A stretch of 64,000 bases of DNA from Candidatus Kerfeldbacteria bacterium (GTDB taxonomy: Bacteria; Patescibacteriota; Patescibacteriia; UBA10025; JAHIVO01): contig CP181398.1 in the NCBI GenBank assembly GCA_047946875.1, positions 1,169,329-1,233,328 of the forward strand, read 5' to 3'. The notes under the pieces were generated by a model. That model searched no databases. It was given only the letters and a program-made list of their open reading frames with translations, and was not told the origin of the DNA. The translations under genes and the position numbers were made by a program. This document shows positions 4,455 to 48,989 of this stretch, in pieces (the stretch's first letter is position 1; each line of letters begins with the position of its first letter).

Positions 4455-4522
4455 ATATATTTTATTTAATAATATTACTTATCGTATATCATTGGGTGAA
4501 ATAATGCAATAAAAAAGTTTTA

Positions 4523-4581
4523 TTAGATTATAGGTATATGATAAACTTAATGTAGGAGGTTAAGTTATTAATAGTATAAAT
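4523..4581 (+). promoter_or_regulatory. conserved promoter/5'UTR module, copy a
   Basis: ttagattataggtatatgataaacttaatgtaggaggttaagttattaatagtataaat then ATG. Contains an extended -10 (TGATAAACT). Nearly identical modules at 5148-5206 and 9041-9099. Confidence 0.6.
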
Positions 4582-4902
4582 ATGGAAGAACAAAACCAAA
4601 AACAACCAACTCAGCAGCAATCAGTACTGCAGTCCGAGGAACACAGAAAAGGAAAAATTAATTTTTCACAAGCATTCTCCAAGTTAAGTAAATATTCTAA
4701 AAGATTTTTTATTGTTTGTGAATTATTACTTGCTATAGTTGTAATATTATACTTAATGTATGAATATACCCCCTCCTGGTCTGGTTGGGTTGAATTTGTT
4801 CTGCTGTCGTATTTTTTATTTATTGTAAATATTATATATTTAATAGCAATTATTATTTTTCTCTTAACACATAAAAATTATAATGGATTGTGTGTGTGGT
4901 AG
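4582..4902 (+). CDS. small integral membrane protein (106 aa); N-terminus MEEQNQK paralogous to 5520-5951
   Basis: ORF track. Hydrophobic C-terminal half. Preceded by the conserved promoter module. Confidence 0.55.
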   Translation: MEEQNQKQPTQQQSVLQSEEHRKGKINFSQAFSKLSKYSKRFFIVCELLLAIVVILYLMYEYTPSWSGWVEFVLLSYFLFIVNIIYLIAIIIFLLTHKNYNGLCVW

Positions 4903-5071
4903 GTTTTATATACTATTTGTTAATACCTATTATTCTAATTACATCAGTGGTATTTTTTAACTGGTACTGGAACTATTTTTAAAGAATTATTTTTTTATAA
5001 AAAAATAAAAACACCTCACGAGAGAATAAGATGTTTTTTCTTGGAGAGACATCTAAATACTCAGTTATTTT

Positions 5072-5106
5072 CCCAGGTGGCTATCGTAAGATTATTCGAA
5101 CCCCAC
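5072..5106 (-). pseudogene. decayed tRNA-His-like 3' fragment
   Basis: cccaggtggctatcgtaagattattcgaacccc resembles the plus-strand text of the tRNA-His 3' part (tggggtggctagagggaatcgaaccctc). Followed about 45 nt later by promoter module b. Confidence 0.3.
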
Positions 5107-5147
5107 ATTCTGCGGGACAAGCCAATCTCAAAATCATTGAGGTTTTA

Positions 5148-5206
5148 TTGGATTTTGGGTATATGGTAGACTTAATATAGGAATTTAAGTTATTAATAGT
5201 ATAAAT
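5148..5206 (+). promoter_or_regulatory. conserved promoter/5'UTR module, copy b
   Basis: ttggattttgggtatatggtagacttaatataggaatttaagttattaatagtataaat then ATG. Extended -10 TGGTAGACT. Confidence 0.6.
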
Positions 5207-5509
5207 ATGAATTTAGGTACAACAAACATAATTTTTATAATTATATTATCATTACTTTCGATAGTTTTGGTTATATATATAGCATATTTATTTTTTAGAG
5301 TTAAAAAAGATGATAATAATAATCAAAAGACACTATATAGGTTTTTGAATTATAAACAAGTTATTACAATTGTTGTAATAGTATTGTTGGCCTTCACAAT
5401 AACAAAGGTGTCTAAAAGTTGGGAAAATTTTATATTACCATTTTATCTTCTTATTATTTTAATAATATTAGGAGTAATAGTAATTCCAAAATTATCAAAT
5501 AAAAAATAA
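5207..5509 (+). CDS. small integral membrane protein (100 aa)
   Basis: ORF track. Two or three hydrophobic helices. Confidence 0.55.
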   Translation: MNLGTTNIIFIIILSLLSIVLVIYIAYLFFRVKKDDNNNQKTLYRFLNYKQVITIVVIVLLAFTITKVSKSWENFILPFYLLIILIILGVIVIPKLSNKK

Positions 5510-5519
5510 AGGTGTAAAT

Positions 5520-5951
5520 ATGGAAGAACAAAATCAAAAACATACAACATTTCAGCCAGAAGAACCTAAGAATAAAACTTTTAAAAAAATAAAAATCTTT
5601 AGTAGATGTGTATGGGGATTATTTTCAGTTCTAATTGTTTTAAGGAATCTATTTGGCATCGAAATTCCTTTTATAATATTTCAATTTATTGCTTCTATTT
5701 TTTTTATAAGCGGGGTTTTTTCTTTTTGGGTGTTTGCTAACCGTGGAATTAAAGATGTTCGTTTACTTGTTAAATTTCAACTTTGGCAATATTTTTATAT
5801 TGCCTCTGTAGTATTACTAGGTATTTTTACTGCAAATCCTGATGTTAATCAGATGGATGTATTAATATTTTCTATGATTTTTGTTACGTATCTATTGGGA
5901 GAAGCGGCTAATTATTACGAAAAAAAGACTGAGGCTTCAGAAAAAAAATAA
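5520..5951 (+). CDS. small integral membrane protein (143 aa), paralogue of 4582-4902
   Basis: ORF track. Shares the MEEQNQK N-terminus. Ends in an A8 tract (5941-5948). Confidence 0.6.
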   Translation: MEEQNQKHTTFQPEEPKNKTFKKIKIFSRCVWGLFSVLIVLRNLFGIEIPFIIFQFIASIFFISGVFSFWVFANRGIKDVRLLVKFQLWQYFYIASVVLLGIFTANPDVNQMDVLIFSMIFVTYLLGEAANYYEKKTEASEKK

Positions 5952-6127
5952 AACAAAACTTTTTAAAGATTGGAAATTTTGGGTGTGGGTAATAATTGTC
6001 CTATTGGTTGCTGCTTTTATTATATATAGTAGTTGATAATTATAATGCCACAAAAGGATTTAATTAAAGTATATTAAAAAATTCTGCTTATCGGCAGGCA
6101 GGCACCTTAAGAGGCGGGATTTTTTGA

Positions 6128-6245
6128 TTGGGGTCGGATAGCCCGTCCGCCACAGCTTCGCCGTAGGCGTGCCGGGCGGGCTGTTTACCCCGTCCTTCAT
6201 GGAAGGCGGGGTAAATTTTAGAACTTATTTATTAAGAGGTGTTTT
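6128..6245. repeat. copy of the 11291-11335 repeat (tRNA-His 3'-end-like) carrying two GC-hairpin insertions
   Basis: ttggggtcggatagc + [39-nt GC palindrome 6143-6181] + tgttta + [~29-nt hairpin 6188-6216, ccccgtccttcatggaaggcgggg] + ttagaacttattta. The uninterrupted version at 11291-11335 reads ctggggtcggatagctgtttatcttagaacttattta. Confidence 0.7.
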
Positions 6246-6250
6246 ATTAT

Positions 6251-7048
6251 TTATTTTTTCAATTCAACTACATCAAGTGTGCGATTATAAATCGATGCTG
6301 TCTGGCCGGCATCAACATTCCAGCCAACCTGAAAAGTATGTGATCCAGCAGTAACATCTACCAAGGCATTGAAGGCCATGTTAAATGGACCGCCGGAAGA
6401 AGCGGCAGTTCCTCTTCTAATGGTGTGATCAACTATTGTCCCATCAACAATTAAAAAAGTCCTGGCTGAAACAAAGTCATTATTAATACTAAATACCCCA
6501 CTGAAATTAATTAATACGGTGCTGGCGCCAGTTGTAACAACAATAGTTTCATCTAAAATATCATAATTTGGGGAATTTTGTGTTGTTGTATCCGTAGTTG
6601 TTCCATAAGCTTCACTCGTTTGAGTTATGGCGCCGGCTGCAATATTGGTAGATGTTACTATCCCTGTCCCCATCAAACTTCCCACCGTCAATGATCCGAT
6701 TACTTCCATATTATCATTTACGATAAATGGCATGGTATCACTTGTCCCAGCTGTAGCACCACGCCAAACACGACCGTCTATTCTTACATTATCTCCAAAG
6801 GTCACAGGGTTATCAACACTATTGGTTGTTGTATCGTTTACAATAGAGCCGTTAAAGTAAGTTACTCCTCCAATATCCTGTTCCCCGATCATAATTGAAC
6901 GCATTTTCATAGTTCCATCAACTTGATAAATATCTCCTTCCGGTCCAAATTGGGAGGTGACATTGTGTGTGGCCGCAGCATTTACAATCCCCACCGTTAA
7001 TGCGATGGAAATGATCACTACCAACGATGTTATTAGTTTTTTGTTCAT
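6251..7048 (-). CDS. secreted fibre-like protein, paralogue A (conserved N-terminal half, C1q/TNF-like-looking C-terminal head)
   Basis: ORF track, 265 aa. Signal peptide ending VNA-A. About the first 130 aa align with 15173-16045 and 16160-17077. The C-terminus is unrelated to theirs. Confidence 0.8.
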   Translation of the reverse strand: MNKKLITSLVVIISIALTVGIVNAAATHNVTSQFGPEGDIYQVDGTMKMRSIMIGEQDIGGVTYFNGSIVNDTTTNSVDNPVTFGDNVRIDGRVWRGATAGTSDTMPFIVNDNMEVIGSLTVGSLMGTGIVTSTNIAAGAITQTSEAYGTTTDTTTQNSPNYDILDETIVVTTGASTVLINFSGVFSINNDFVSARTFLIVDGTIVDHTIRRGTAASSGGPFNMAFNALVDVTAGSHTFQVGWNVDAGQTASIYNRTLDVVELKK

Positions 7049-8954: not shown

Positions 8955-9040
8955 AGTATTATATGAAAATTATTAGATATCCAATGTTCACTTATTATTA
9001 TAGCTAATATTAGTAGATACTTAAAGGGGCTGAAATTTTA

Positions 9041-9099
9041 TTAGATTTTGGGTATATGGTAGACTTACTTTGGTAGGTTATATTATTAAGATATTTATT
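9041..9099 (+). promoter_or_regulatory. conserved promoter/5'UTR module, copy c
   Basis: ttagattttgggtatatggtagacttactttggtaggttatattattaagatatttatt then ATG at 9100. Confidence 0.55.
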
Positions 9100-10212
9100 A
9101 TGAAAAATAAAACAATATTTATTGGATTTATAATAGGTGTAGGTATTTTACTATTGGCTGTGATTGGGAATTATTTTAGTAAGGATAATATGACGAAGGA
9201 TGAAGGTATTTTTTCAAATGTTGTCCAAGATAACATAATACAAAGTAACATTAATATATTAGAGGTATCAGATGTGCCAGAAGACTGTGATGTTGTTTTT
9301 ACCCATCGGTTTACAGATATTACAAAAATCAATGCTATCCAGCCAATTGGCTCTATCACCGGCGCTTCTCCTGGTCGTAGTTATTTGGATATTAAAGAAG
9401 GAGAAACTGTCCCGGTATACGCCCCAATGGATGCCACATTAAAATTTATTGCATATTCATATCGTGGCCCAGAGGCGCCTTACCCAGAATATGGTTTTAG
9501 TTTTGATACTGGTTGTGGGGTAACTTTTATGTTAGATCATTTGGACACAATATCGGATGAATTAAAGCAATATGCGCCTATTGAGCCTTCACTAGCAACT
9601 GACGGTACTAATAATCTTTCGGTTGAGGTTGAGGCGGGAACACTTCTGGGATATACTGATGGAACAGAACAGGCTAAAACTTTTGACTTTTTGGTAATAG
9701 ATAAAAATACTGACGTTTTTCATATTAATCCGGAACGATGGGACTGGGATCAAGCGTTGCATGCTGTCTGTCCGTATGATCTATATACAGATGATTTGAA
9801 AAGTGAGTATTATGAAAAAATTGGGACATATTATTACACAGGATTTGTAAAAGCAGAGAGCTGTGGTAATCCATCATACGATATTGTTGGAACAATTTCC
9901 GGTGGGTGGTTTTTGGGAGAAAACGATACGATGATGACTGGTGAGTTTATGACAATTGGCGAGGAGGGTGGTAATGTGTACACAATTGTCAAAAATAATC
10001 TGGAAGATGTAATAATACGCGTGGATGATTACTGGACAGAAGTCATGCCAAAAGATGTTAAGGTTGGGAGTTCAGCATGCTATTTTGACAACAACACAGA
10101 TACTTGGATGTTTTTGAATTTAGTAAGTGAAGAAACCATCCAGCTTGCAAATGGAAATGGGAATTGTCCTGTAGAGTTTCCAGATTCTAATATAAAGATT
10201 TATTCGAGATAG
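9100..10212 (+). CDS. N-terminally anchored surface protein (about 370 aa)
   Basis: ORF track 9070-10212. ATG at 9100 (MKNKTIFIGF...) preferred by analogy with modules a and b. No confident domain. Confidence 0.75.
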   Translation: MKNKTIFIGFIIGVGILLLAVIGNYFSKDNMTKDEGIFSNVVQDNIIQSNINILEVSDVPEDCDVVFTHRFTDITKINAIQPIGSITGASPGRSYLDIKEGETVPVYAPMDATLKFIAYSYRGPEAPYPEYGFSFDTGCGVTFMLDHLDTISDELKQYAPIEPSLATDGTNNLSVEVEAGTLLGYTDGTEQAKTFDFLVIDKNTDVFHINPERWDWDQALHAVCPYDLYTDDLKSEYYEKIGTYYYTGFVKAESCGNPSYDIVGTISGGWFLGENDTMMTGEFMTIGEEGGNVYTIVKNNLEDVIIRVDDYWTEVMPKDVKVGSSACYFDNNTDTWMFLNLVSEETIQLANGNGNCPVEFPDSNIKIYSR

Positions 10213-10218
10213 TCTTTA

Positions 10219-10295
10219 TTGGGGTCCCTATCGGTCGGTTAATTTAACTAACCTGATGAAGGTTTTGGGTGATTTTAGGTATATGGTAGGAATAT
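10219..10295. repeat. tRNA-His-3'-end-like remnant plus orphan copy of the promoter module
   Basis: ttggggtccctatcggtcgg (10219-10238) then ggttttgggtgattttaggtatatggtagg. No plus-strand ORF follows. Confidence 0.4.
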
Positions 10296-11078: not shown

Positions 11079-11160
11079 AGTTATAAATTTAATATTCAAT
11101 AATTTAAGTATACCAAAAACGACCCTAATAACATATCTATAGGGTAACTTTTATAAAATG

Positions 11161-11335
11161 GGTGGTTAGACCTGCCTACCGGCAGGCAGGGGGAATTACG
11201 CGTCGCCTATTGGCTCGCTTCTACCCGTCCGATTCCCATTTTATCCCATATCAAAAAAAGTTCCACCATATAAATATGATAAAACTTTTTCTGGGGTCGG
11301 ATAGCTGTTTATCTTAGAACTTATTTAATGGATGG
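11161..11335. repeat. direct repeat of the tRNA-His downstream flank plus last ~12 nt of tRNA-His
   Basis: Aligns by eye (~80 percent) with 11720-11905, including ...catatcaaaaaaa...tttttctggggtNgg. Contains the GC hairpin cctgcctaccggcaggcagg (11171-11190). Confidence 0.7.
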
Positions 11336-11425
11336 ATTGGAGGTATATGGAGTGGTTAATAACATAGTTTAGTAGTTTGTGATATAATTAATACATAAAA
11401 AAGAATTAATATTAATTTTATTTAT

Positions 11426-11656
11426 ATGGGCGATCACGTAATTTTAAGATTTCCATTCGACGACCCTGACAATCCAGAGGTAGTTGATGTTCTGGCTAAT
11501 GTACCGGTTCATTGGAAAAAATATCTTAAAGAAATCGCACATAAGACAAAAAAACCAGGAAGATATATTGCGTCTAACATTCTTTATGATGACGAGTATT
11601 ACTATCCCGAGTCAATGGAAAAAAATCATAAAAAAATTGAAAAGGAATCAGAGTAA
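11426..11656 (+). CDS. hypothetical protein (76 aa)
   Basis: ORF track. Lies between the two tRNA-His flank repeats. No domain recognised. Confidence 0.4.
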   Translation: MGDHVILRFPFDDPDNPEVVDVLANVPVHWKKYLKEIAHKTKKPGRYIASNILYDDEYYYPESMEKNHKKIEKESE

Positions 11657-11719: not shown

Positions 11720-11892
11720 GTTTTTAGAAAAGCCGGCAGGGAGAATTTCGCGTCGCCAAAGGCTCCTTGTCCTGGGTAGCGACCCCGCGGTGCGGGGTCG
11801 ACTCTTGCCTTCGTCTCGCTTCTATCCGTTCGATTCCTATTTTGCCCCATATCAAAAAAATTTCATCATCTACAAGGGATAATAAAATTTTT
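11720..11892. repeat. tRNA-His downstream flank (master copy of the 11161-11305 repeat) with GC-hairpin insertion
   Basis: Carries an extra segment containing cgaccccgcggtgcggggtcg (11780-11800) that is absent from the 11161 copy. Track ORF 11664-11882 is probably spurious. Confidence 0.65.
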
Positions 11893-11968
11893 CTGGGGTG
11901 GCTAGAGGGAATCGAACCCTCATAGCTGGTTCCACAAACCAGTGCACTAACCGTTGTGCTATAGCCAC
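11893..11968 (-). tRNA. tRNA-His (GTG), CCA encoded, G-1 present
   Basis: rc: G-GTGGCTA TA GCAC AACGGTTA GTGC A CTGGT TTGTGGA ACCAG CTAT GAGGG TTCGATT CCCTC TAGCCAC C CCA. Confidence 0.9.
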
Positions 11969-12112
11969 CACGTTGATTTTACATTCCAGGTTACGTATCT
12001 CCGCATTCGCGAATTTACTCCACCTTTCATGTAAATCTGCCTTTCCTCACACATCTGTGCTCATTTTATTGCGCTCCTGATGTGTTCGGGATGTTTAATG
12101 TAAAAAATCAGT
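11969..12112 (-). ncRNA. tRNA-proximal structured spacer element, divergent copy L1 (tRNA-Leu to tRNA-His)
   Basis: GAGGAAAGG purine tract. P1 GATTTACAT / ATGTAAAATC. GGTGGAG...ACGTAACC core. Ends AACG before the tRNA. Confidence 0.45.
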
Positions 12113-15172: not shown

Positions 15173-16045
15173 TTAGTATATTGCCAGCATAAATACACCA
15201 TCGGCAGGATTTTCATCTTTATCATGTTCCCAAACTAAAACGGTATTTGGATCAGATGCATGAGGAGCAGCGCCAATTAATCTAATAGCAACAGCACCGC
15301 CTGTACCACTTGGAGTAGCGATGTAAGCTCTAGTTGGTGTACCTGAACCATTATTTACAGCAAAATTGAAAGTTACTTCATATCTACCATTGCCAGTATT
15401 TGTGGCAGCAGTAGCATTATATCCACTAGTTAACGTACCTCCTGAACTAACATAGGCCCATCCTTTTAATGCTCCTTCAGCAGATACGGCCTGGGTGATG
15501 TTACCAGTAGTAGTGACTGTGTCAATACTAAGATCGGCAGTTGAGGATATATCGCTTCCAGTGATGGTTCCATCGACAATTTTAGCTGAGGTAATTGCAT
15601 TATCAGCAATGTCAGCGGTGGCAATTGTAGCATCAGTAATATTGTCAGATGTTACTATCCCAGTACCAAGTAAACTTGCTACTGTTAATGATCCAGTAAC
15701 TTCCATATTGTCATTGACAATAAATGGCATTGAATCTGCAGTACCAGCTGTTGCTCCGCGAAAAACACGTCCATCTATACGGACGTTATCACCAAAAGTA
15801 ACGGGATTGTCTACTCCGGCGTTTGTTGTGGTATTGATTATAGATCCATTGAAGTAGGTTACTCCACCTACACCCTGTTCACCGATCATCGTTGATCTCA
15901 TTTTCATTGTCCCATCTACTTGAAATATGTCTCCTTCTGGTCCAAATTGTGAAGTGACATTGTGACTAGTTGCAGCATTGACTATCCCAGCTGTCAAAGC
16001 AATAGAAGCAACTACCACTACGAGGGTTAAAAGCTTTTTTTTCAT
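15173..16045 (-). CDS. secreted fibre-like protein, paralogue B
   Basis: ORF track, 290 aa. Signal peptide VNA-A. The N-terminal ~145 aa are almost identical to paralogue C. I-x-D-x-x-I-T repeat stalk. Unique C-terminal domain. Confidence 0.8.
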   Translation of the reverse strand: MKKKLLTLVVVVASIALTAGIVNAATSHNVTSQFGPEGDIFQVDGTMKMRSTMIGEQGVGGVTYFNGSIINTTTNAGVDNPVTFGDNVRIDGRVFRGATAGTADSMPFIVNDNMEVTGSLTVASLLGTGIVTSDNITDATIATADIADNAITSAKIVDGTITGSDISSTADLSIDTVTTTGNITQAVSAEGALKGWAYVSSGGTLTSGYNATAATNTGNGRYEVTFNFAVNNGSGTPTRAYIATPSGTGGAVAIRLIGAAPHASDPNTVLVWEHDKDENPADGVFMLAIY

Positions 16046-16159: not shown

Positions 16160-17077
16160 TTACATTTCGTAAATTATAAAACTAAATGAAGTTTGGCCAG
16201 CTGACCCGGTAGATTCGTCTACAAAATCAACAGTAAAATGATCATTTACGCTATTTGTAGCCGGAATAAATCCAGAATTTATCGGTGTAACAACCGCTAC
16301 ATGAGTAAGATAAGAATAAGTTACCCCAGTAATAGTAATTTCATATTGATTACTACCACCGTCCCAGGAACAAGCTATGTTACTGGTACCACCTCTATCA
16401 GAGCCATCTGAATTACAATAACCATAGGCAATAGGCAGATTGGCACCGCCCGTACCATTGATCTTGTCAGGTGTTATAGCGTCATCAGCTACATCTGCTG
16501 TAGCAATAGTTCCGTCTGTAATTTTTGAACTAATTATTGAGTTACTGGCTAAATCTCCAGATACAATAGTTCCGTCTGTAATTTTAGCTGAGGTAATAGC
16601 ATCATCATCAATTTTTGCAGTTGTAATTACGCTATCAGCTATGTCTGCTGTAGCTATAGTAGCGTCAGTAATATTGTCAGATGTTACTATCCCGGTACCA
16701 AGTAAACTTGCTACTGTTAATGATCCAGTAACTTCCATATTGTCGTTGACGATAAAAGGTTGAGTGTCTCCTGTTCCGGCAGTTGCTCCGCGAAAAACAC
16801 GTCCGTCAATACGAACATTATCACCAAAAGTTACGGGATTGTCTACACCGGAGTTTGTAGTGGCATTGATTATAGATCCATTGAAGTAAGTTACTCCACC
16901 AACACCTTGTTCACCGATCATAACTGATCTCATGTTCATTGTTCCATCTACTTGAAATATGTCTCCTTCTGGTCCAAATTGTGAAGTGACATTGTGACTA
17001 GTTGCTGCGTTGACTATCCCAGCTGTCAAAGCAATAGAAGCAACTACCACTACGAGGGTTAAAAGCTTTTTTTTCAT
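16160..17077 (-). CDS. secreted fibre-like protein, paralogue C
   Basis: ORF track, 305 aa. Longer I-x-D-x-x-I-T repeat stalk. Unique Cys-containing C-terminal domain. Confidence 0.8.
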   Translation of the reverse strand: MKKKLLTLVVVVASIALTAGIVNAATSHNVTSQFGPEGDIFQVDGTMNMRSVMIGEQGVGGVTYFNGSIINATTNSGVDNPVTFGDNVRIDGRVFRGATAGTGDTQPFIVNDNMEVTGSLTVASLLGTGIVTSDNITDATIATADIADSVITTAKIDDDAITSAKITDGTIVSGDLASNSIISSKITDGTIATADVADDAITPDKINGTGGANLPIAYGYCNSDGSDRGGTSNIACSWDGGSNQYEITITGVTYSYLTHVAVVTPINSGFIPATNSVNDHFTVDFVDESTGSAGQTSFSFIIYEM

Positions 17078-18332: not shown

Positions 18333-18431
18333 ATTTTTTTATATAAATAGTTATTTATATTATGTTTTTATTATACTATTTTATGGAAATAAAAACACCC
18401 CATTTCATTAGTGTTAAGGAAATTGGTTGTT

Positions 18432-18575
18432 TGGTGGGACGTAGAGGATTTGAACCTCTGACCGTTTGCTTCCCGCCTTTCGGACGGGACAAGTAAGAGG
18501 CAACTTTATCCCGCTAAGAATTGGCGGGATGCTCTACTTTACCCCGCCTATTAAAGGCGGGGCGAGCTGAGCTAA
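18432..18575 (-). pseudogene. decayed partial tRNA-Lys copy (nt ~8 to CCA) split by three GC hairpins
   Basis: ggtgggacgtagaggatttgaacctctgaccgtttgctt[cccgcctttcggacgggac]aagtaagaggcaact[ttatcccgctaagaattggcgggat]gctctac[tttaccccgcctattaaaggcggggc]gagctgagctaa, compared with the intact gene at 18843-18919. The 5' acceptor strand is missing. Confidence 0.8.
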
Positions 18576-18803
18576 TTTATTTTTATATTGATGATTTTTC
18601 TTTTTTAGCCACAATTCGTGCCTCCTTGCCTCTTTATAAGAATGGTGTTTTTTAAAATATACAAGTTTAAATAGTTTATATTTTGAACTGCTGTTGAGTT
18701 TTCCTTGGTTGTGTTCGTGAATACGTTTCCAAGGTTGTATAGAAATACCACAATAATATTTATTAAACTTATTACTATATATTAAGTACGTATAAACATT
18801 CAT
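18534..18803 (-). CDS. GIY-YIG nuclease superfamily protein (89 aa)
   Basis: YTYLIYSNKFNKYYCGIS...RIHEHNQG fits the GIY...YIG...R..H/E pattern of small URI-domain proteins. The C-terminal LAQLAPPLIGGVK is encoded by the dead tRNA-Lys copy plus a GC hairpin. Confidence 0.7.
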   Translation of the reverse strand: MNVYTYLIYSNKFNKYYCGISIQPWKRIHEHNQGKLNSSSKYKLFKLVYFKKHHSYKEARRHELWLKKKNHQYKNKLAQLAPPLIGGVK

Positions 18804-18842
18804 AAAATTTCCCTTTTATTATTTATTAGAAGGGAAGGTTTT

Positions 18843-18919
18843 TGGTGGGACGTAGAGGATTTGAACCTCTGACCGTTTGCTTAAGAGGCAACTGCTCTAC
18901 CAAGCTGAGCTAACGTCCC
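18843..18919 (-). tRNA. tRNA-Lys (CTT), CCA encoded
   Basis: rc: GGGACGT TA GCTC AGCTTGGTA GAGC A GTTGC CTCTTAA GCAAA CGGTC AGAGG TTCAAAT CCTCT ACGTCCC A CCA. Confidence 0.9.
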
Positions 18920-19041
18920 GCGTCGATATAATATTTTTGGTTACGTTTTCAGCTTTCGCTGCTAATTCCACCGCTCATATCATTTCTCCTTTCCTCGCAG
19001 AACGGTATCGTTCAGCTCGGTATTATTTATTATAGGAATGG
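18920..19041 (-). ncRNA. tRNA-proximal structured spacer element, copy L2 (before tRNA-Lys)
   Basis: rc: ...GAACGATACCGTTC..GAGGAAAGGAGAAATGATATGAGCGGTGGAATTAGCAGCGAAAGCTGAAAACGTAACCAAAAATATTATATCGACG then the tRNA. Confidence 0.55.
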
Positions 19042-19202: not shown

Positions 19203-19311
19203 CCCGTCTGCCATCGCCAATACCCTCGAGAGGAATCGAACCTCTATCCACGGCTTAGAAGGCCGTTGTTCTATCCGTTGAACTACAAGGGCAATGGCAA
19301 TGGCGGGCAGG
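19203..19311 (-). mobile_element. 109-bp imperfect-IR-flanked unit carrying a complete tRNA-Arg, nested in the older tRNA-Arg
   Basis: cccgtctgccatcgccaa / tRNA / aatggcaatggcgggcagg. The flanks are imperfect inverted repeats (13 of 18 by my alignment). Confidence 0.45.
19221..19292 (-). tRNA. tRNA-Arg (TCT), no encoded CCA
   Basis: rc: GCCCTTG TA GTTC AACGGATA GAAC A ACGGC CTTCTAA GCCGT GGAT AGAGG TTCGATT CCTCT CGAGGGT A. Two G-U pairs in the acceptor stem. Confidence 0.85.
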
Positions 19312-19362
19312 TATCCGTTGTCAGGCAGAGCCTGATCCGGCTTTGCCGGAAACTACAAGGGC
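19312..19362 (-). pseudogene. old tRNA-Arg 5' portion (nt 1-21) with a 30-nt GC hairpin insertion
   Basis: tatccgttg[tcaggcagagcctgatccggctttgccgga]aactacaagggc. Directly abuts spacer element L3, as intact tRNAs do elsewhere. Confidence 0.75.
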
Positions 19363-19478
19363 GCGTCTAAATAATATTTTTGGTTACGTTTTCAGCTTTC
19401 GCTGCTAACTCCACCATTCATATCATTTCTCCTTTCCCCGCAGAACGGTATCGTTCAGCTCAATGTTATTAAATAATA
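19363..19478 (-). ncRNA. tRNA-proximal structured spacer element, copy L3
   Basis: Near-identical to L2: ...GGGGAAAGGAGAAATGATATGAATGGTGGAGTTAGCAGCGAAAGCTGAAAACGTAACCAAAAATATTATTTAGACGC. Confidence 0.55.
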
Positions 19479-19515
19479 TTTCGAATATTAGCAATAAAAA
19501 CTATTTAAGTCAATG

Positions 19516-20397
19516 CTAATTGCTGGTATATAGTTTGGTTGTGGTAATAAAGTTATGACCAAGTATTGATTGGATAGATTTGATGTCATAGCCCTGTTTT
19601 TTTAAATGAACTGCATATGCTTGGCGGAGTTTTTCGGGAGTAATATTATTACCTAGATTTGTTTTTTTTGAATATTTTTTTATGATTCTTTGGATGGTAC
19701 GTGGAGTTAGTTGATAAGTTTCTTTTTTAACAGTACTTAGTTGTCTTTTCTTAGCTTTATCATGCCTAATAAATAATGCATTAAATTTATCATTTCTTAT
19801 TTTTAGATATTCATGGACTGCATAACTAGCTTGATTTGATAAATTTAGAGAACGAGATTTTTTCTTACGTAAAATATTGATTGAGTTTGTACTGAAGTTT
19901 ATGTTTTCTTTTTTTAATGAAGCAAGCTCTGATACTTTGAGACCAGAGCATAACAGGAGTTCTAAGATTGCTTTGTCTCTTTTTTGGATAATCCCAGGAT
20001 TTTTTTCATGCAAGGGAGAAGATAATAGTAGATCGATATCTGATTCTTCGAGTGGTTTATAATGTTTTTTTATTTGCTTTTTAAGAACAATTTCCTTGAA
20101 TGGCAATGAATGAATATTTTTCTTCTTTAAATATTCCAAAAAGGATCTTAGGGCTATTAAATGATAGTTTTGTGTATTTATTTTTAATAACTCTTTTTTT
20201 TGATTACGTATAGTGCTTAAGTAGTTTTTGAATAAATCAATTTTTTCTTTGGTAATATCTGAAGCTTGCCTAATGTTGGATTGATTAAAAAAACGGTGAA
20301 GGTAGAAACTATAGTTATTTACAGTTTGTTTCGTAGTTTTTTTCTTTTGCTGAAGATATTCTAAGAAATTATTTAAATTTTTATTAATGTCATTCAT
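19516..20397 (-). CDS. tyrosine recombinase (XerC/D / phage-integrase family), divergent active-site residues
   Basis: SAM-like N-domain. Box I CSGLKVSEL (Lys where Arg is usual). Box II EKLRQAYAVHL...LGH...TKLYTS (Arg, His and Tyr recognisable; other His positions substituted). Confidence 0.8.
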   Translation of the reverse strand: MNDINKNLNNFLEYLQQKKKTTKQTVNNYSFYLHRFFNQSNIRQASDITKEKIDLFKNYLSTIRNQKKELLKINTQNYHLIALRSFLEYLKKKNIHSLPFKEIVLKKQIKKHYKPLEESDIDLLLSSPLHEKNPGIIQKRDKAILELLLCSGLKVSELASLKKENINFSTNSINILRKKKSRSLNLSNQASYAVHEYLKIRNDKFNALFIRHDKAKKRQLSTVKKETYQLTPRTIQRIIKKYSKKTNLGNNITPEKLRQAYAVHLKKQGYDIKSIQSILGHNFITTTKLYTSN

Positions 20398-26761: not shown

Positions 26762-27322
26762 ATGAATCATAAGCAGCCAGCTGGCCATACATTTTTACAC
26801 CCAGAGAATATTCTAAAAGAAATAGGATTGTCTATTGGTGAAACAATAGCTGATTTTGGTTGTGGTGGTGGTTATTTTGTAATTCCAGCCGCAAAAATAA
26901 TTGGTGACGATGGTGTAGCTTATGGTGTTGATGTATTAAAAAATGCATTATCTTCATTGGATGTTAAATCGCGAATGTTTGGGCTAACCAATGTTAAACC
27001 TGTTTGGGCAAACGTAGAGATTTTTGGAGCTTCTCGTGGTATACATGACAATATATTGGATATGGTTTTTTTGGTTCAGATAATGTCTCAATCAAAAAAA
27101 AGAAGAGAAATTTTCAAAGAGGTTGATAGAGTCTTAAAGCATAATGGTGGTAAGATTATGGTTATCGATTGGAAAAGTGATAAATTAAGCTTTAGTCCTA
27201 ATCCAGCTTCGATGACAAAACCTGAAGAAATTAAAGAAATAGCTAAGTCGTTCGGATTAATTTTAGAAAAAGAATTTGAACCAAGTGATTATCATTTTGG
27301 TTTATTGTTAAAGCGAGCGTAA
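26762..27322 (+). CDS. class I SAM-dependent methyltransferase
   Basis: Motif I DFGCGGGYF. Confidence 0.8.
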   Translation: MNHKQPAGHTFLHPENILKEIGLSIGETIADFGCGGGYFVIPAAKIIGDDGVAYGVDVLKNALSSLDVKSRMFGLTNVKPVWANVEIFGASRGIHDNILDMVFLVQIMSQSKKRREIFKEVDRVLKHNGGKIMVIDWKSDKLSFSPNPASMTKPEEIKEIAKSFGLILEKEFEPSDYHFGLLLKRA

Positions 27323-29224: not shown

Positions 29225-29247
29225 TTTTAATAAGTAATAAAAATAAT

Positions 29248-29280
29248 TTCCGGCAGAGCCGGATCAGGCTCTGCCTGAAA
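29248..29280. repeat. 34-nt GC palindromic element (family tttccggcagagccggatcaggctctgcctgaaa)
   Basis: 9-bp stem GGCAGAGCC/GGCTCTGCC. Inverted copy at 34085-34120. Third copy inside the old tRNA-Arg fragment (19321-19350). Confidence 0.7.
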
Positions 29281-34084: not shown

Positions 34085-34120
34085 TTTCAGGTAGAGCCTG
34101 ATCCGGCTATGCCGGAAATT
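34085..34120. repeat. 34-nt GC palindromic element, inverted copy
   Basis: tttcaggtagagcctgatccggctatgccggaaa equals the reverse complement of 29248-29280 with two substitutions. Confidence 0.7.
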
Positions 34121-34140
34121 AACAAATAAAATATAATAAA

Positions 34141-48574: not shown

Positions 48575-48646
48575 TGCCGCGGGGCGGAATCGAACCACCG
48601 ACGCAAGGATTTTCAGTCCTTCGCTCTACCCCTGAGCTACCGCGGC
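48575..48646 (-). tRNA. tRNA-Phe (GAA), no encoded CCA
   Basis: rc: GCCGCGG TA GCTC AGGGGTA GAGC G AAGGA CTGAAAA TCCTT GCGTC GGTGG TTCGATT CCGCC CCGCGGC A. Confidence 0.9.
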
Positions 48647-48758
48647 GCGTCGAAATGATACTTCAGGTTCCGTTTCCAACTGAAGTTGAAAACTGCACTC
48701 TTTATATCATTTCTCCTCTCCTCAATGAAGCTACGCTTCCTTTCGGTATAATTCTTAA
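48647..48758 (-). ncRNA. tRNA-proximal structured spacer element, copy L6 (fills the tRNA-Ile to tRNA-Phe gap)
   Basis: rc: ..GGAAGCGTAGCTTC..GAGGAGAGGA GAAATGATA TAAAGA GTGCAGTTTTCAACTTCAGTTGGAAACGGAACC TGAAG TATCATTTC GACGC. Confidence 0.6.
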
Positions 48759-48835
48759 TGGTGGGCGATCCAGGAGTTGAACCTGGGACCTCGTCATTAT
48801 CAGTGACGCGCTCTAACCAACTGAGCTAATCGCCC
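48759..48835 (-). tRNA. tRNA-Ile (GAT), CCA encoded
   Basis: rc: GGGCGAT TA GCTC AGTTGGTTA GAGC G CGTCA CTGATAA TGACG AGGTC CCAGG TTCAACT CCTGG ATCGCCC A CCA. Confidence 0.9.
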
Positions 48836-48882: not shown

Positions 48883-48989
48883 CTAGGAGTTGATCAAATG
48901 TCGCGCTCCCCGCCCGTACCGAACGGGTACGTTCGGGCGGGTAACTTCATCCCGCCTGTTCTAGGCGGGGCAAGCTGAGCTAATCGCCC
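48883..48989 (-). pseudogene. decayed tRNA-Ile copy (5' third plus T-loop remnant) with two GC hairpins and an internal deletion
   Basis: ctaggagttga..gtcgcgctc[48908-48942 hairpin]aac[48946-48971 hairpin]aagctgagctaatcgccc versus the intact gene. The anticodon arm is missing. Confidence 0.7.

What the first reader, a model, noticed from the sequence alone, without database searches (positions are those of the whole stretch)
4523..4581. Portable promoter/5'UTR module reused in front of unrelated surface and membrane genes
Three about 60-nt modules (4523-4581, 5148-5206, 9041-9099) are nearly identical up to the ATG. They contain an extended -10 (TGGTAGACT or TGATAAACT) and a shared AT-rich 5'UTR. 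The ORFs they drive are different. Two further partial copies (10262-10295, 11330-11360) have no ORF behind them. A promoter plus UTR moving as a unit is unusual. It suggests either co-regulation of a surface-protein regulon or that the module is the outward-reading end of the inserted segments described for tRNA-His.
Basis: partly seen in the sequence, partly recalled or inferred. Interest (0 to 1): 0.5.

Follow-up and report, generated by a model that had tools for sequence, protein, structure and literature searches.

The report
Reused promoter/leader module beside tRNA-His
A ~68-base stretch that ends exactly at the start codon is reused in front of unrelated, mostly membrane-protein genes in a variable island next to tRNA-His. 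The same stretch is conserved across related Patescibacteria genomes, so it is most likely a portable promoter plus leader, a known kind of element not yet described in this little-studied group.

Summary
Three full copies (4517-4584, 5140-5209, 9033-9102) are 75-88% identical and each ends at an ATG. A fourth copy is truncated (10220-10289). The claimed fifth copy (11333-11361) is not a copy. No other copy exists in the 64 kb.

The module is not a one-locus duplication. A profile finds 15 further copies on 10 contigs of related Patescibacteria. The ATG usually lies 56 nt after the core GATTTTRGGTATATGGTAGACTTA. The downstream genes are unrelated: small membrane proteins, a K+ channel, HIT, MFS. 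The point where similarity ends differs between copies, and the part they all share is the promoter-like core.

There is no Rfam match, no RNA covariation, no inverted repeats and no phage or plasmid match.

In every locus that holds tRNA-His, the copies lie 3' of that gene and antisense to it. The island there is segmented by decayed tRNA-His fragments and a ~170-nt repeat (X), and no integrase lies inside it.

Best reading: a propagated promoter/5'UTR module ("putative mobile promoter") that travels with segments accumulated at tRNA-His. Transcription was not tested. It is a new member of a known kind, of moderate interest.

The parts
4517..4584 (+). Module copy c1. It has a promoter-like core with TGATAAACT at 4539-4547, an A/T-rich leader with AGGAGG at 4554-4559, and ends at ATG 4582.
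   Evidence: (HMM E 8e-16)
4582..4902 (+). ORF behind c1: 106 aa, N-terminus MEEQNQKQP, two hydrophobic segments.
   Evidence: no Pfam hit above the cut-off
5140..5209 (+). Module copy c2 (TGGTAGACT at 5164-5172). Its 5' edge abuts a decayed tRNA-His.
   Evidence: (E 1.5e-18)
5207..5951 (+). Two ORFs behind c2: 5207-5509 (100 aa, three hydrophobic segments) and 5520-5951 (143 aa, MEEQNQK). The second keeps the last ~14 nt of the module leader at 5507-5519.
   Evidence: (D11)
9033..9102 (+). Module copy c3 (TGGTAGACT at 9057-9065). It lies in a 145-nt divergent intergenic region.
   Evidence: (E 3.5e-13)
9100..10212 (+). ORF behind c3: 370 aa with an N-terminal hydrophobic anchor, no family match, unrelated to the c1 and c2 ORFs.
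10220..10289 (+). Truncated long-form copy c4. It runs TGGGGTCCCTATCGG...TTTAACTAAC...GGTTTTGGGTGATTTTAGGTATATGGTAG and has lost its -10 and leader. No ORF lies behind it. It is 95% identical over 57 nt to L005 4872-4817.
   Evidence: E 1.6e-5
11333..11361 (+). The claimed fifth copy. It is not a module copy. By eye it resembles the linker/U-box region. ORF 11426-11656 follows, with its own TGTGATATAAT box.
5003..5135 (-). A conserved 3' block (5003-5083, 91% identical to L005 1915-1835) followed by a decayed tRNA-His from the anticodon arm to the 3' end (about 5083-5135). It marks the far boundary of the inserted DNA.
6090..6245 (+). A degenerate X unit, then TGGGGT (6129), then a U-box (GGGGTCGGATAGC...TTAGAACTTATTTA) carrying two inserted GC-rich hairpins. 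No module follows.
11132..11338 (+). An X unit (a tRNA-His 3'-end fragment GGGTGGTTAGAC with a hairpin insertion, a GC-rich core, a terminator hairpin, then TTTTTC-TGGGGT at 11292), followed by a U-box.
   Evidence: 81% to 11815-11899; E 2e-40
11724..11893 (+). X' unit directly 3' of the intact tRNA-His.
   Evidence: (E 2e-48)
11894..11968 (-). Intact tRNA-His (GTG). It anchors the island. The order tRNA-Leu(GAG), rplS, rluD beyond it is shared with L005 and L010-L013.

Best explanation
The ~68-nt module is a reusable expression signal.

Its anatomy, read from the sequence:
- A promoter core, GGTTTTAT-N2-GATTTTRGGTATATGGTAGACTTA. The best -10 candidate is the extended -10 TGGTAGACT (TGATAAACT in c1).
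- A ~28-nt unstructured A/T-rich leader that begins near AGGAGG and ends at the ATG.

It is shared by a clade of Patescibacteria. There it heads accessory genes, mostly membrane-anchored. Many belong to a family whose conserved N-terminus (MEEQNQQQPTPQPEKPKKK-YKKWWFW) travels with the module.

Copies have arisen by duplication and recombination with varying end points, which has placed the same core in front of unrelated genes. They accumulate, always antisense to the tRNA, in the variable island built by successive insertions 3' of tRNA-His.

Shown: the repeat itself, its conservation across genomes, the fixed spacing to the ATG, the unrelated downstream genes, the varying end points, the clustering and orientation at tRNA-His, and the absence of RNA structure.

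Inferred: that the core starts transcription, where it starts, whether a shared regulator binds it, and how copies spread.
For: 1. The repeat is significant and local. The core gives 6 matches against 1.25 expected. There are four HMM hits in 64 kb, all between 4.5 and 10.3 kb.

2. It is conserved across genomes. Scans with the exact pattern found it on 8 other contigs. The HMM raises the total to 19 copies on the window plus 10 contigs. Sequence that the search pattern did not require (GGTTTTAT upstream, AGGAGGTTAAGTTATTAA downstream) is also conserved. Sequence further upstream of the copies is not alignable.

3. An unbiased sample agrees. Relatives were fetched through their L19 protein (72-77% identical). 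Two of the three with sequence 3' of tRNA-His carry one copy there (L012, L013); L011 does not.

4. Every copy is co-directional with an ORF. The ATG lies at +56 from the GATT of the core in 8 of 11 copies, and at +53 to +55 in two of the other three.

5. The downstream proteins are unrelated: a K+ channel and HIT, MFS, a 370-aa anchored protein, and small multi-pass proteins.

6. Similarity ends at different points. It stops after GGTAG in c4, just after ACTTAA in L004, after the AGGG in L003, and at the end of the leader in L005_3277, which has a further 58 nt before its ATG. L005_5642 keeps only the -10 and leader. The common denominator is the core.

7. c1 and c3 sit in short divergent intergenic regions of 127 and 145 nt, so a promoter must lie there.

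8. TGnTAnnnT boxes also precede other genes of this genome, for example TGATAAACT before ORF 3923 and TGGTATACT before ORF 11078(-).

9. The leader has no consensus structure and no covariation.

10. Pairs c1-c2 and c2-c3 meet the published operational criteria for putative mobile promoters: at least 50 nt at 80% identity or more, upstream of CDSs that do not align (PMC3488235). For c1-c2 the CDS condition is only marginal.
Against: There are no transcript data.

The -35 is poor (TTTATT/TTTATG, 3 of 6), and the sigma-70 consensus scan did not report the module.

The most conserved bases lie in what would be the spacer and at non-consensus -10 positions (TAGACT). Sigma-70 recognition alone does not explain that; it points to an extra binding factor or to recent spread.

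The strong AGGAGG lies 22-23 nt before the ATG, too far for a normal Shine-Dalgarno site, and the proximal site is weak. Many genes of this genome look leaderless, so a second start site close to the ATG cannot be excluded.

The eight pattern-derived copies were selected for the core, which inflates its apparent conservation.

Presence in the clade is patchy: it is absent from L011.
Confidence: 0.6

Rival explanations
1. The module, especially its long form that begins TGGGGTCCCTACCG, is mainly a recombination or attachment site. On this reading it marks the boundary of small gene cassettes captured at the 3' end of tRNA-His, and its resemblance to a promoter is secondary.
For: TGGGGT, the reverse complement of the last six bases of tRNA-His (ACCCCA), lies 45-110 nt upstream of the core on the same strand in 6 of 19 copies and in the truncated L005 4872 copy. 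It is often preceded by the genuine tRNA-His terminator flank. X units separate the segments. c2 abuts a decayed tRNA-His. All copies near tRNA-His have one orientation. Non-coding blocks are shared as a mosaic between the window and L005/L006 at 85-95% identity, while the tRNA region itself is 79.5% identical.
Against: No integrase lies in the island or in the L005 island. The nearest tyrosine recombinase is 7.5 kb away on the other side of the tRNA. Most copies (c1, c3, L001, L004, L008 and others) have no tRNA fragment nearby. The fixed distance to the ATG and conservation right up to the ATG are what an expression signal predicts, not an att site. The core has no dyad symmetry or inverted core-type repeats, judged by reading the sequence.
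Confidence: 0.13
2. The module is simply the conserved 5' end (promoter, leader, N-terminal tail and membrane anchor) of one family of paralogous variable membrane proteins, comparable to the upstream homology box of the Borrelia erp genes. On this reading it is not really portable, and the non-family genes behind it are rare accidents.
For: Nine of the tabulated ORFs begin ME(E)Q(N)QQ(Q)P or MDQPPQQQP, followed by KK-YKKWWFW-like anchors. Similarity is confined to the first 30-50 residues. The N-terminal coding DNA is about as conserved as the module, for example 5516-5587 against L005 5324-5253 at 83%.
Against: At least eight copies precede ORFs that differ from the first codon: c2, c3, L001, L003 K+ channel, L004, L005 MFS, L005_5981 and L007 HIT. 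Family members also occur without the module inside operons, for example 5520 and L005 5320. The two units therefore separate.
Confidence: 0.15
3. The module is a cis-regulatory RNA in the leader, such as a thermosensor or riboswitch-like hairpin that hides the AGGAGG.
For: ACTTAA-N9-TTAAGT can form a 6-bp hairpin with AGGAGG in its loop in c1, c2, L002 and L006 (read from the sequence; 83% of cells pair).
Against: There are no compensatory changes, and substitutions break pairs. Shuffled controls give the same pairing (355 of 500). RNAalifold predicts no consensus structure. There is no Rfam match. If TAGACT is the -10, the 5' arm would be largely untranscribed.
Confidence: 0.03
4. The repeat is a chance similarity of A/T-rich intergenic DNA, or one recent local duplication with no function.
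For: The genome is 33% G+C, and the copies are clustered within 7 kb.
Against: 0 of 100 shuffles reach the observed count. HMM E-values go down to 1e-21. Fifteen copies lie in other genomes whose L19 is only 72-80% identical.
Confidence: 0.02

Closest known systems
Putative mobile promoters (PMPs; Matus-Garcia, Nijveen and van Passel 2012, PMC3488235)
   Same: Both are highly similar 50-100-nt upstream regions (at least 80% identical) in front of non-homologous CDSs. Conservation runs up to a few nt before the start codon, and some families are shared between species. Pairs c1-c2 and c2-c3 meet the operational criteria.
   Different: This module is in Patescibacteria, which were absent from the 2012 genome set. 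It is strongly clustered in one tRNA-proximal island rather than dispersed. It is often fused to a conserved N-terminal coding segment. It is conserved across genomes as far apart as 72-80% L19 identity.
Upstream homology box of the Borrelia erp/ospE-F and related cp32 lipoprotein genes, and the conserved 5' regions of Mycoplasma variable surface protein genes (from my own knowledge; term located, papers not read)
   Same: A conserved promoter, leader and N-terminal export or anchor segment sits in front of divergent surface-protein bodies, within multi-copy arrays.
   Different: There is no evidence here for prophage plasmids, invertible promoters or homopolymer phase switches. All copies have one orientation. 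The module also precedes cytoplasmic and transporter genes.
Additive genomic islands next to tRNA genes, built by serial integration (for example Prochlorococcus tycheposons; bioRxiv 10.1101/2020.12.28.424599)
   Same: The island lies next to a tRNA gene, partial tRNA copies are scattered through it, newer insertions push older ones away from the tRNA, and the content is a mosaic that differs between relatives.
   Different: No integrase or replication hallmark genes lie in the island. The segments are very small (0.4-5 kb). The repeats include ~170 nt of the flank downstream of the tRNA (X), not only tRNA sequence. A shared promoter module at segment ends was not among the tycheposon features in the passages read.
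Integron gene cassettes
   Same: An array of small, mostly single-gene units in one orientation at a fixed chromosomal site.
   Different: No intI, attI or attC was seen. Integron cassettes are typically promoterless and are read from Pc, whereas here each unit brings its own promoter-like module.
Promoter-bearing MITEs (Neisseria Correia/CREE, Yersinia ERIC)
   Same: A short intergenic repeat that can supply promoter elements to neighbouring genes.
   Different: The module has no terminal inverted repeats, no recognisable target-site duplication, a single orientation relative to the gene, and a fixed distance to the ATG.

Membership tests
Putative mobile promoter (PMP, PMC3488235) | Upstream regions align over at least 50 nt at 80% identity or more | tested here: met
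   c1-c2 is 88% over 68 nt and c2-c3 is 83% over 54 nt. c1-c3 is only 75-76%.
Putative mobile promoter (PMP, PMC3488235) | Downstream CDSs do not align | tested here: met
   c1/c3 gives E 29 and c2/c3 gives E 3.4. c1/c2 has only a marginal 35-aa hydrophobic match, E 0.003.
Putative mobile promoter (PMP, PMC3488235) | Upstream neighbouring CDSs do not align | tested here: met
   Self-blastn shows no similarity 5' of the module between the three loci.
Putative mobile promoter (PMP, PMC3488235) | The sequence actually starts transcription | not testable with these tools
   No transcript data are available. This is only inferred from position, the extended -10 and the divergent intergenic context.
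Sigma-70 promoter with extended -10 | A TG one base upstream of a -10 hexamer that has A at position 2 and T at position 6 | tested here: met
   TGGTAGACT or TGATAAACT lies 43 nt before the ATG and is conserved in 16 of 17 aligned copies.
Sigma-70 promoter with extended -10 | A -35 hexamer close to TTGACA at 16-18 nt | tested here: not met
   The best candidate, TTTATT/TTTATG, matches 3 of 6. The consensus scan did not list the module. The 16S promoter region of this genome does show TTGACA-17-TAAAAT.
tRNA-targeting integrative element / genomic island | Location at the 3' side of a tRNA gene, with direct repeats of the tRNA 3' part | tested here: met
   The intact tRNA-His is at 11894-11968. 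A decayed copy is at about 5083-5135. TGGGGT junctions are at 6129, 10220 and 11292. The fragment GGGTGGTTAGAC is at 11162. The same pattern occurs in L002, L005, L006, L010 and L011.
tRNA-targeting integrative element / genomic island | An integrase (tyrosine or serine recombinase) encoded in the element | tested here: not met
   No recombinase is among the island ORFs or in the L005 island. A Phage_integrase ORF lies outside the island at 19516-20397.
Integron | An intI integrase with attI, and attC sites at cassette 3' ends | tested here: not met
   There is no intI in the window region or the loci. No systematic search for attC folds was done. Cassette 3' ends carry different blocks (5003-5083 and the X units).
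MITE / Correia-like repeat | Terminal inverted repeats and copies in both orientations | tested here: not met
   No inverted partner of the module was found. All 19 copies are co-directional with the downstream ORF.
Cis-regulatory leader RNA (Rfam family or a new structured leader) | A match to a curated family, or a conserved structure with covariation | tested here: not met
   Rfam gives no match at gathering scores or at E up to 10. There are 0 compensatory pairs, and RNAalifold predicts no structure.
Conserved 5' region of a paralogous surface-protein family (UHB-like) | The conserved upstream region continues into a conserved N-terminal coding segment, followed by a divergent body | tested here: inconclusive
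   This holds for about half of the copies, the MEEQNQQQP...KKWWFW family, where similarity is limited to the first 30-50 aa. It does not hold for c2, c3, L001, L003, L004, L005 MFS and L007.

The most novel reading that the evidence does not exclude
The tRNA-His locus of this Patescibacteria clade may be a gene-capture platform that works without a resident integrase. On this reading, small circular segments each carry three things: a copy of the ~170-nt X repeat (the tRNA-His 3' end plus its terminator flank), the TGGGGT junction, and the promoter module reading into one to a few cargo genes. They enter and leave by recombination at X/TGGGGT. This would build an oriented array of self-expressing cassettes, functionally like an integron but with the promoter on every cassette.
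Probability: 0.15. Interest if true: 0.7.

Novelty: new member of a known kind. Interest (0 to 1): 0.45.

Why it matters
Almost nothing is known experimentally about promoters, leaders and gene regulation in Patescibacteria (CPR). Here is a ~70-nt element that selection or repeated transfer has kept nearly unchanged in front of many different genes. That makes it a concrete candidate for a strong native promoter/leader, useful for reporter constructs in the few cultivable members. It would also mark a co-expressed set of envelope genes, and it tags the flexible island at tRNA-His, where these reduced genomes seem to exchange surface-related genes. If the cassette-platform reading were right, it would describe how episymbiotic bacteria with tiny genomes diversify their cell surface.

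Tried and rejected
- Exact-sequence look-ups of the c3 protein, with either start codon, found nothing.
- The L19 look-up returned only a 2.9-kb contig of the same organism.
- Viral contigs gave 0 matches. The phage and plasmid collections gave no blastn match. PHROGs gave no hit for ten island ORFs. A prophage or plasmid origin is therefore not supported.
- Pfam gave nothing informative for the ORFs behind the modules.
- Rfam gave nothing at either threshold.
- The hairpin ACTTAA/TTAAGT was tested and rejected as a conserved RNA structure.
- ATT as an alternative start codon 7 nt after AGGAGG was considered. I rejected it because copies with 1-nt indels put it out of frame with the ORF (L005_5642, L005_5981, L013) or run into a stop (L006_1948).
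- Sigma-B-like (GTTT-N-GGGTAT), sigma-54 and Bacteroidetes-type motifs were compared from memory and rejected on spacing.
- A tRNA-like fold of the antisense module was considered and rejected. ARAGORN and the Rfam tRNA model report nothing at any module copy.
- The word-index search with an MEEQNQ-family protein returned only itself and one fragment, so the size of that family remains unknown.
- The U-box (GGGGTCGGATAGCTGTTTATCTTAGAAC) might be a decayed tRNA 5' half. The resemblance is too weak to decide.

Full report
**Context.** The window is a low-G+C (about 33%) bacterial genome with a 16S rRNA gene and 11 tRNA genes. Its ribosomal protein L19 has its closest relatives (72-80% identity) in MAGs named Patescibacteria, with Kerfeldbacteria further out. 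The finding lies in the stretch from about 4.1 to 11.9 kb, on the 3' side of tRNA-His (11894-11968, minus strand).

**The observation.**
- The repeat finder and blastn confirm three 68-nt copies: 4517-4584, 5142-5209 and 9035-9102. By the repeat finder, c2 is 88% and c3 75% identical to c1. By blastn, c2-c3 is 83% over 54 nt.
- Each copy ends at an ATG.
- The core GATTNTRGGTATATGRTA is over-represented: 6 matches against 1.25 expected, and 0 of 100 shuffles reach 6.
- A profile built from 17 copies gives four significant hits in the 64 kb. These are the three full copies and 10248-10289. Nothing else scores below E 0.1.
- The copy near 10.26 kb is the 5' half of a longer form that starts at TGGGGTCC (10220). 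It is cut after GGTAG and no ORF follows it.
- The claimed copy at 11330-11360 is not significant. By eye, it aligns instead with the linker that precedes the module in another genome. An ORF does follow it, with its own TGTGATATAAT box.
- A further fragment, the end of the leader plus the first codons, precedes ORF 5520 (D11).
- The ORF behind c3 is unrelated to those behind c1 and c2. The c1 and c2 ORFs share only a marginal hydrophobic match.

**Is it confined to this locus?** No.
- Exact-pattern scans found full-length copies on two contigs from genome collections and six from metagenomes.
- The HMM then found extra copies on the same contigs: four in L005, two in L006, two in L008.
- For an unbiased sample, I fetched the L19 neighbourhood of four relatives. 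Of the three with sequence 3' of tRNA-His, L012 and L013 each carry one copy there and L011 carries none.
- The total is 19 copies on the window plus 10 contigs.
- Positions that the search pattern did not force are conserved as well. The consensus reads gaGGTTTTAtt-GATTTTaGGTATATGGTAGACTTAaT--AGGAggTTAAgTTATTAA---tATAaaTATG. DNA further upstream is unrelated between copies.
- L005 shares the gene order of the window (rluD, rplS, tRNA-Leu(GAG), tRNA-His). Its tRNA region is 79.5% identical to the window, whereas several non-coding island blocks are 85-95% identical.

**Anatomy and behaviour.**
- Every copy points at an ORF. The ATG lies 56 nt after the GATT of the core in 8 of 11 copies, and at 53-55 nt in two of the other three.
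- The proteins behind the copies include:
  - small multi-pass membrane proteins;
  - single-anchor proteins with varied ectodomains;
  - a K+ channel and a HIT protein;
  - an MFS transporter.
- Of the 18 module-linked or same-family proteins tabulated, 15 have hydrophobic segments that look transmembrane.
- About half belong to a family whose first 30-50 residues (MEEQNQQQPTPQPEKPKKK-YKKWWFW) are conserved while the rest differs.
- Similarity to the consensus ends at different points in different copies:
  - after GGTAG in c4;
  - just after ACTTAA in L004;
  - after the purine-rich box in L003;
  - at the end of the leader in the L005 MFS copy.
  L005_5642 keeps only the -10 and leader. The shared minimum is therefore the core.
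- c1 and c3 lie in divergent intergenic regions of 127 and 145 nt, which must hold a promoter.
- The best -10 candidate is the extended -10 TGGTAGACT/TGATAAACT, 43 nt before the ATG. Similar TGnTAnnnT boxes precede other genes here.
- The -35 is weak, and the consensus scan did not list the module.
- The 16S rRNA has a CCUCC anti-Shine-Dalgarno tail. The conserved AGGAGG, however, is 22-23 nt from the ATG. If TAGACT is the -10, AGGAGG would sit at about the transcript's 5' end.
- The leader has no conserved structure. The possible ACTTAA/TTAAGT hairpin shows no compensatory change and does not differ from shuffled controls, and RNAalifold predicts nothing.
- Rfam has no match.
- No viral, phage or plasmid sequence matches, and the island ORFs hit no phage family.

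**Relation to tRNA-His.**
- In all five loci that hold tRNA-His (window, L003, L005, L012, L013), every module copy lies 3' of the tRNA and on the opposite strand.
- The window island is bracketed by the intact tRNA-His and a decayed tRNA-His at about 5083-5135. The flank of the decayed copy (5003-5083) is 91% identical to the flank next to a displaced tRNA-His 3' end in L005.
- Inside the island there are repeats of a ~170-nt unit, X. X consists of a tRNA-His 3' fragment cut in the T-loop, a GC-rich core, the tRNA terminator hairpin, and TTTTTC-TGGGGT.
- TGGGGT, the reverse complement of the tRNA's ACCCCA end, lies 45-110 nt upstream of the module in 6 of 19 copies.
- L010 and L011 show the same fragment duplication next to their tRNA-His.
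- This is the signature of serial insertion at a tRNA gene, as described for additive islands such as those built by tycheposons (10.1101/2020.12.28.424599).
- No integrase lies inside the island. A tyrosine recombinase lies 7.5 kb away on the other side of the tRNA.
- Where the module sits next to a junction, it is at the end of the segment far from the tRNA and reads inward.

**Interpretation.** The best-supported reading is a propagated promoter-plus-leader module. It meets the published operational definition of a putative mobile promoter (PMC3488235). Here it is often coupled to a conserved N-terminal anchor, and it is carried by the small segments that accumulate at tRNA-His. Whether its striking conservation reflects a bound regulator, selection for strong expression, or recent exchange between genomes is open. 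Transcription itself is inferred, not shown. Rival readings are scored in their own section:
- an att-like cassette boundary;
- merely the 5' end of one gene family;
- a leader RNA;
- chance.

**Verdict.** It is a new member of a known kind of element, in a phylum where none has been described in the material I could search. Interest is moderate (0.45). The more novel reading, a cassette platform at tRNA-His without a resident integrase, is not excluded; I put it at about 0.15.

Noticed in passing
window 18915-19040, 19289-19480, 48642-48760, 11964-12112 (minus strand): Four tRNA genes (Lys, Arg, Phe, His) share a conserved leader of about 100 nt that ends ...TCGACGCG right at the tRNA 5' end. 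This is a second reused upstream module in this genome. tRNA-Arg has a ~65-nt GC-rich insertion between the leader and the tRNA.
   Followed up: partly
window 19321-19355, 29244-29278, 34087-34121; also 6144-6181, 6190-6212, 11174-11192, 48920-48975: Small GC-rich palindromic repeats (for example CCGGCAGAGCCGGATCAGGCTCTGCC) are dispersed in an A/T-rich genome. Some are inserted into other repeats (the U-box and the X unit) or lie next to tRNA fragments. They look REP- or MITE-like.
   Followed up: no
window 11132-11297, 11724-11893; L005 1679-1849, 4867-5034, 8098-8223; L006 1692-1889; L002 1325-1510; L010 10717-10915: The ~170-nt X unit 3' of tRNA-His is made of a tRNA-His 3' end cut in the T-loop, a conserved GC-rich core (GGGAATCGAACGGGYAGAAGCGAG ... 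CTGCCCAGGAC), a terminator hairpin and TGGGGT. In L011 a ~190-nt GC-rich insert is flanked by a 23-nt direct repeat of the tRNA 3' end. X could be a miniature integrative element or a small RNA gene. There is no Rfam match.
   Followed up: partly
window 18425-18471 and 18837-18882; ORF 18534-18803 (-): A 47-nt, 98% identical copy of the tRNA-Lys 3' end flanks a short insert that encodes a GIY-YIG nuclease. L005 has a GIY-YIG ORF between rplS and tRNA-Leu.
   Followed up: partly
window 48920-48985 (minus strand): A 5' fragment of tRNA-Ile (GGGCGATTAGCTCAG), followed by GC-rich hairpins, lies between the 16S rRNA and the intact tRNA-Ile.
   Followed up: no
window 6251-7048, 15173-16045, 16160-17077 (all minus strand): Three paralogous secreted proteins have 75-90% identical N-terminal halves and internal 30-nt periodic repeats. 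One of them lies inside the tRNA-His island.
   Followed up: no
window, e.g. ATGs at 26762, 26106, 51659, 37558: Many genes have a TATAAT-like box (often with TG) ending 6-9 nt before the ATG and no Shine-Dalgarno site. This suggests frequent leaderless or near-leaderless mRNAs, although the 16S has a CCUCC tail.
   Followed up: partly
window 19516-20397 (-): A tyrosine recombinase (Phage_integrase plus SAM-like N-terminal domain) lies next to the tRNA-Arg/tRNA-Lys cluster, 7.5 kb from tRNA-His. It could be XerC/D or an island integrase.
   Followed up: partly
L008 3540-8028 (-), L004 946-1963 (+), L005 5045-5592 (-): Arrays of paralogous small genes begin M(E/D)(E)Q..QQQP..PEKPKKK.YKKWWFW and have unrelated C-terminal parts. 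This looks like a clade-specific family of N-terminally anchored variable proteins. The members scanned (window c1 and 5520) have no Pfam match above the cut-off.
   Followed up: partly
L002 (CAZBNI010000019.1): This contig is labelled uncultured Gammaproteobacteria, yet it carries the module, the U-box and an X unit typical of the Patescibacteria loci. It is probably mis-binned.
   Followed up: no
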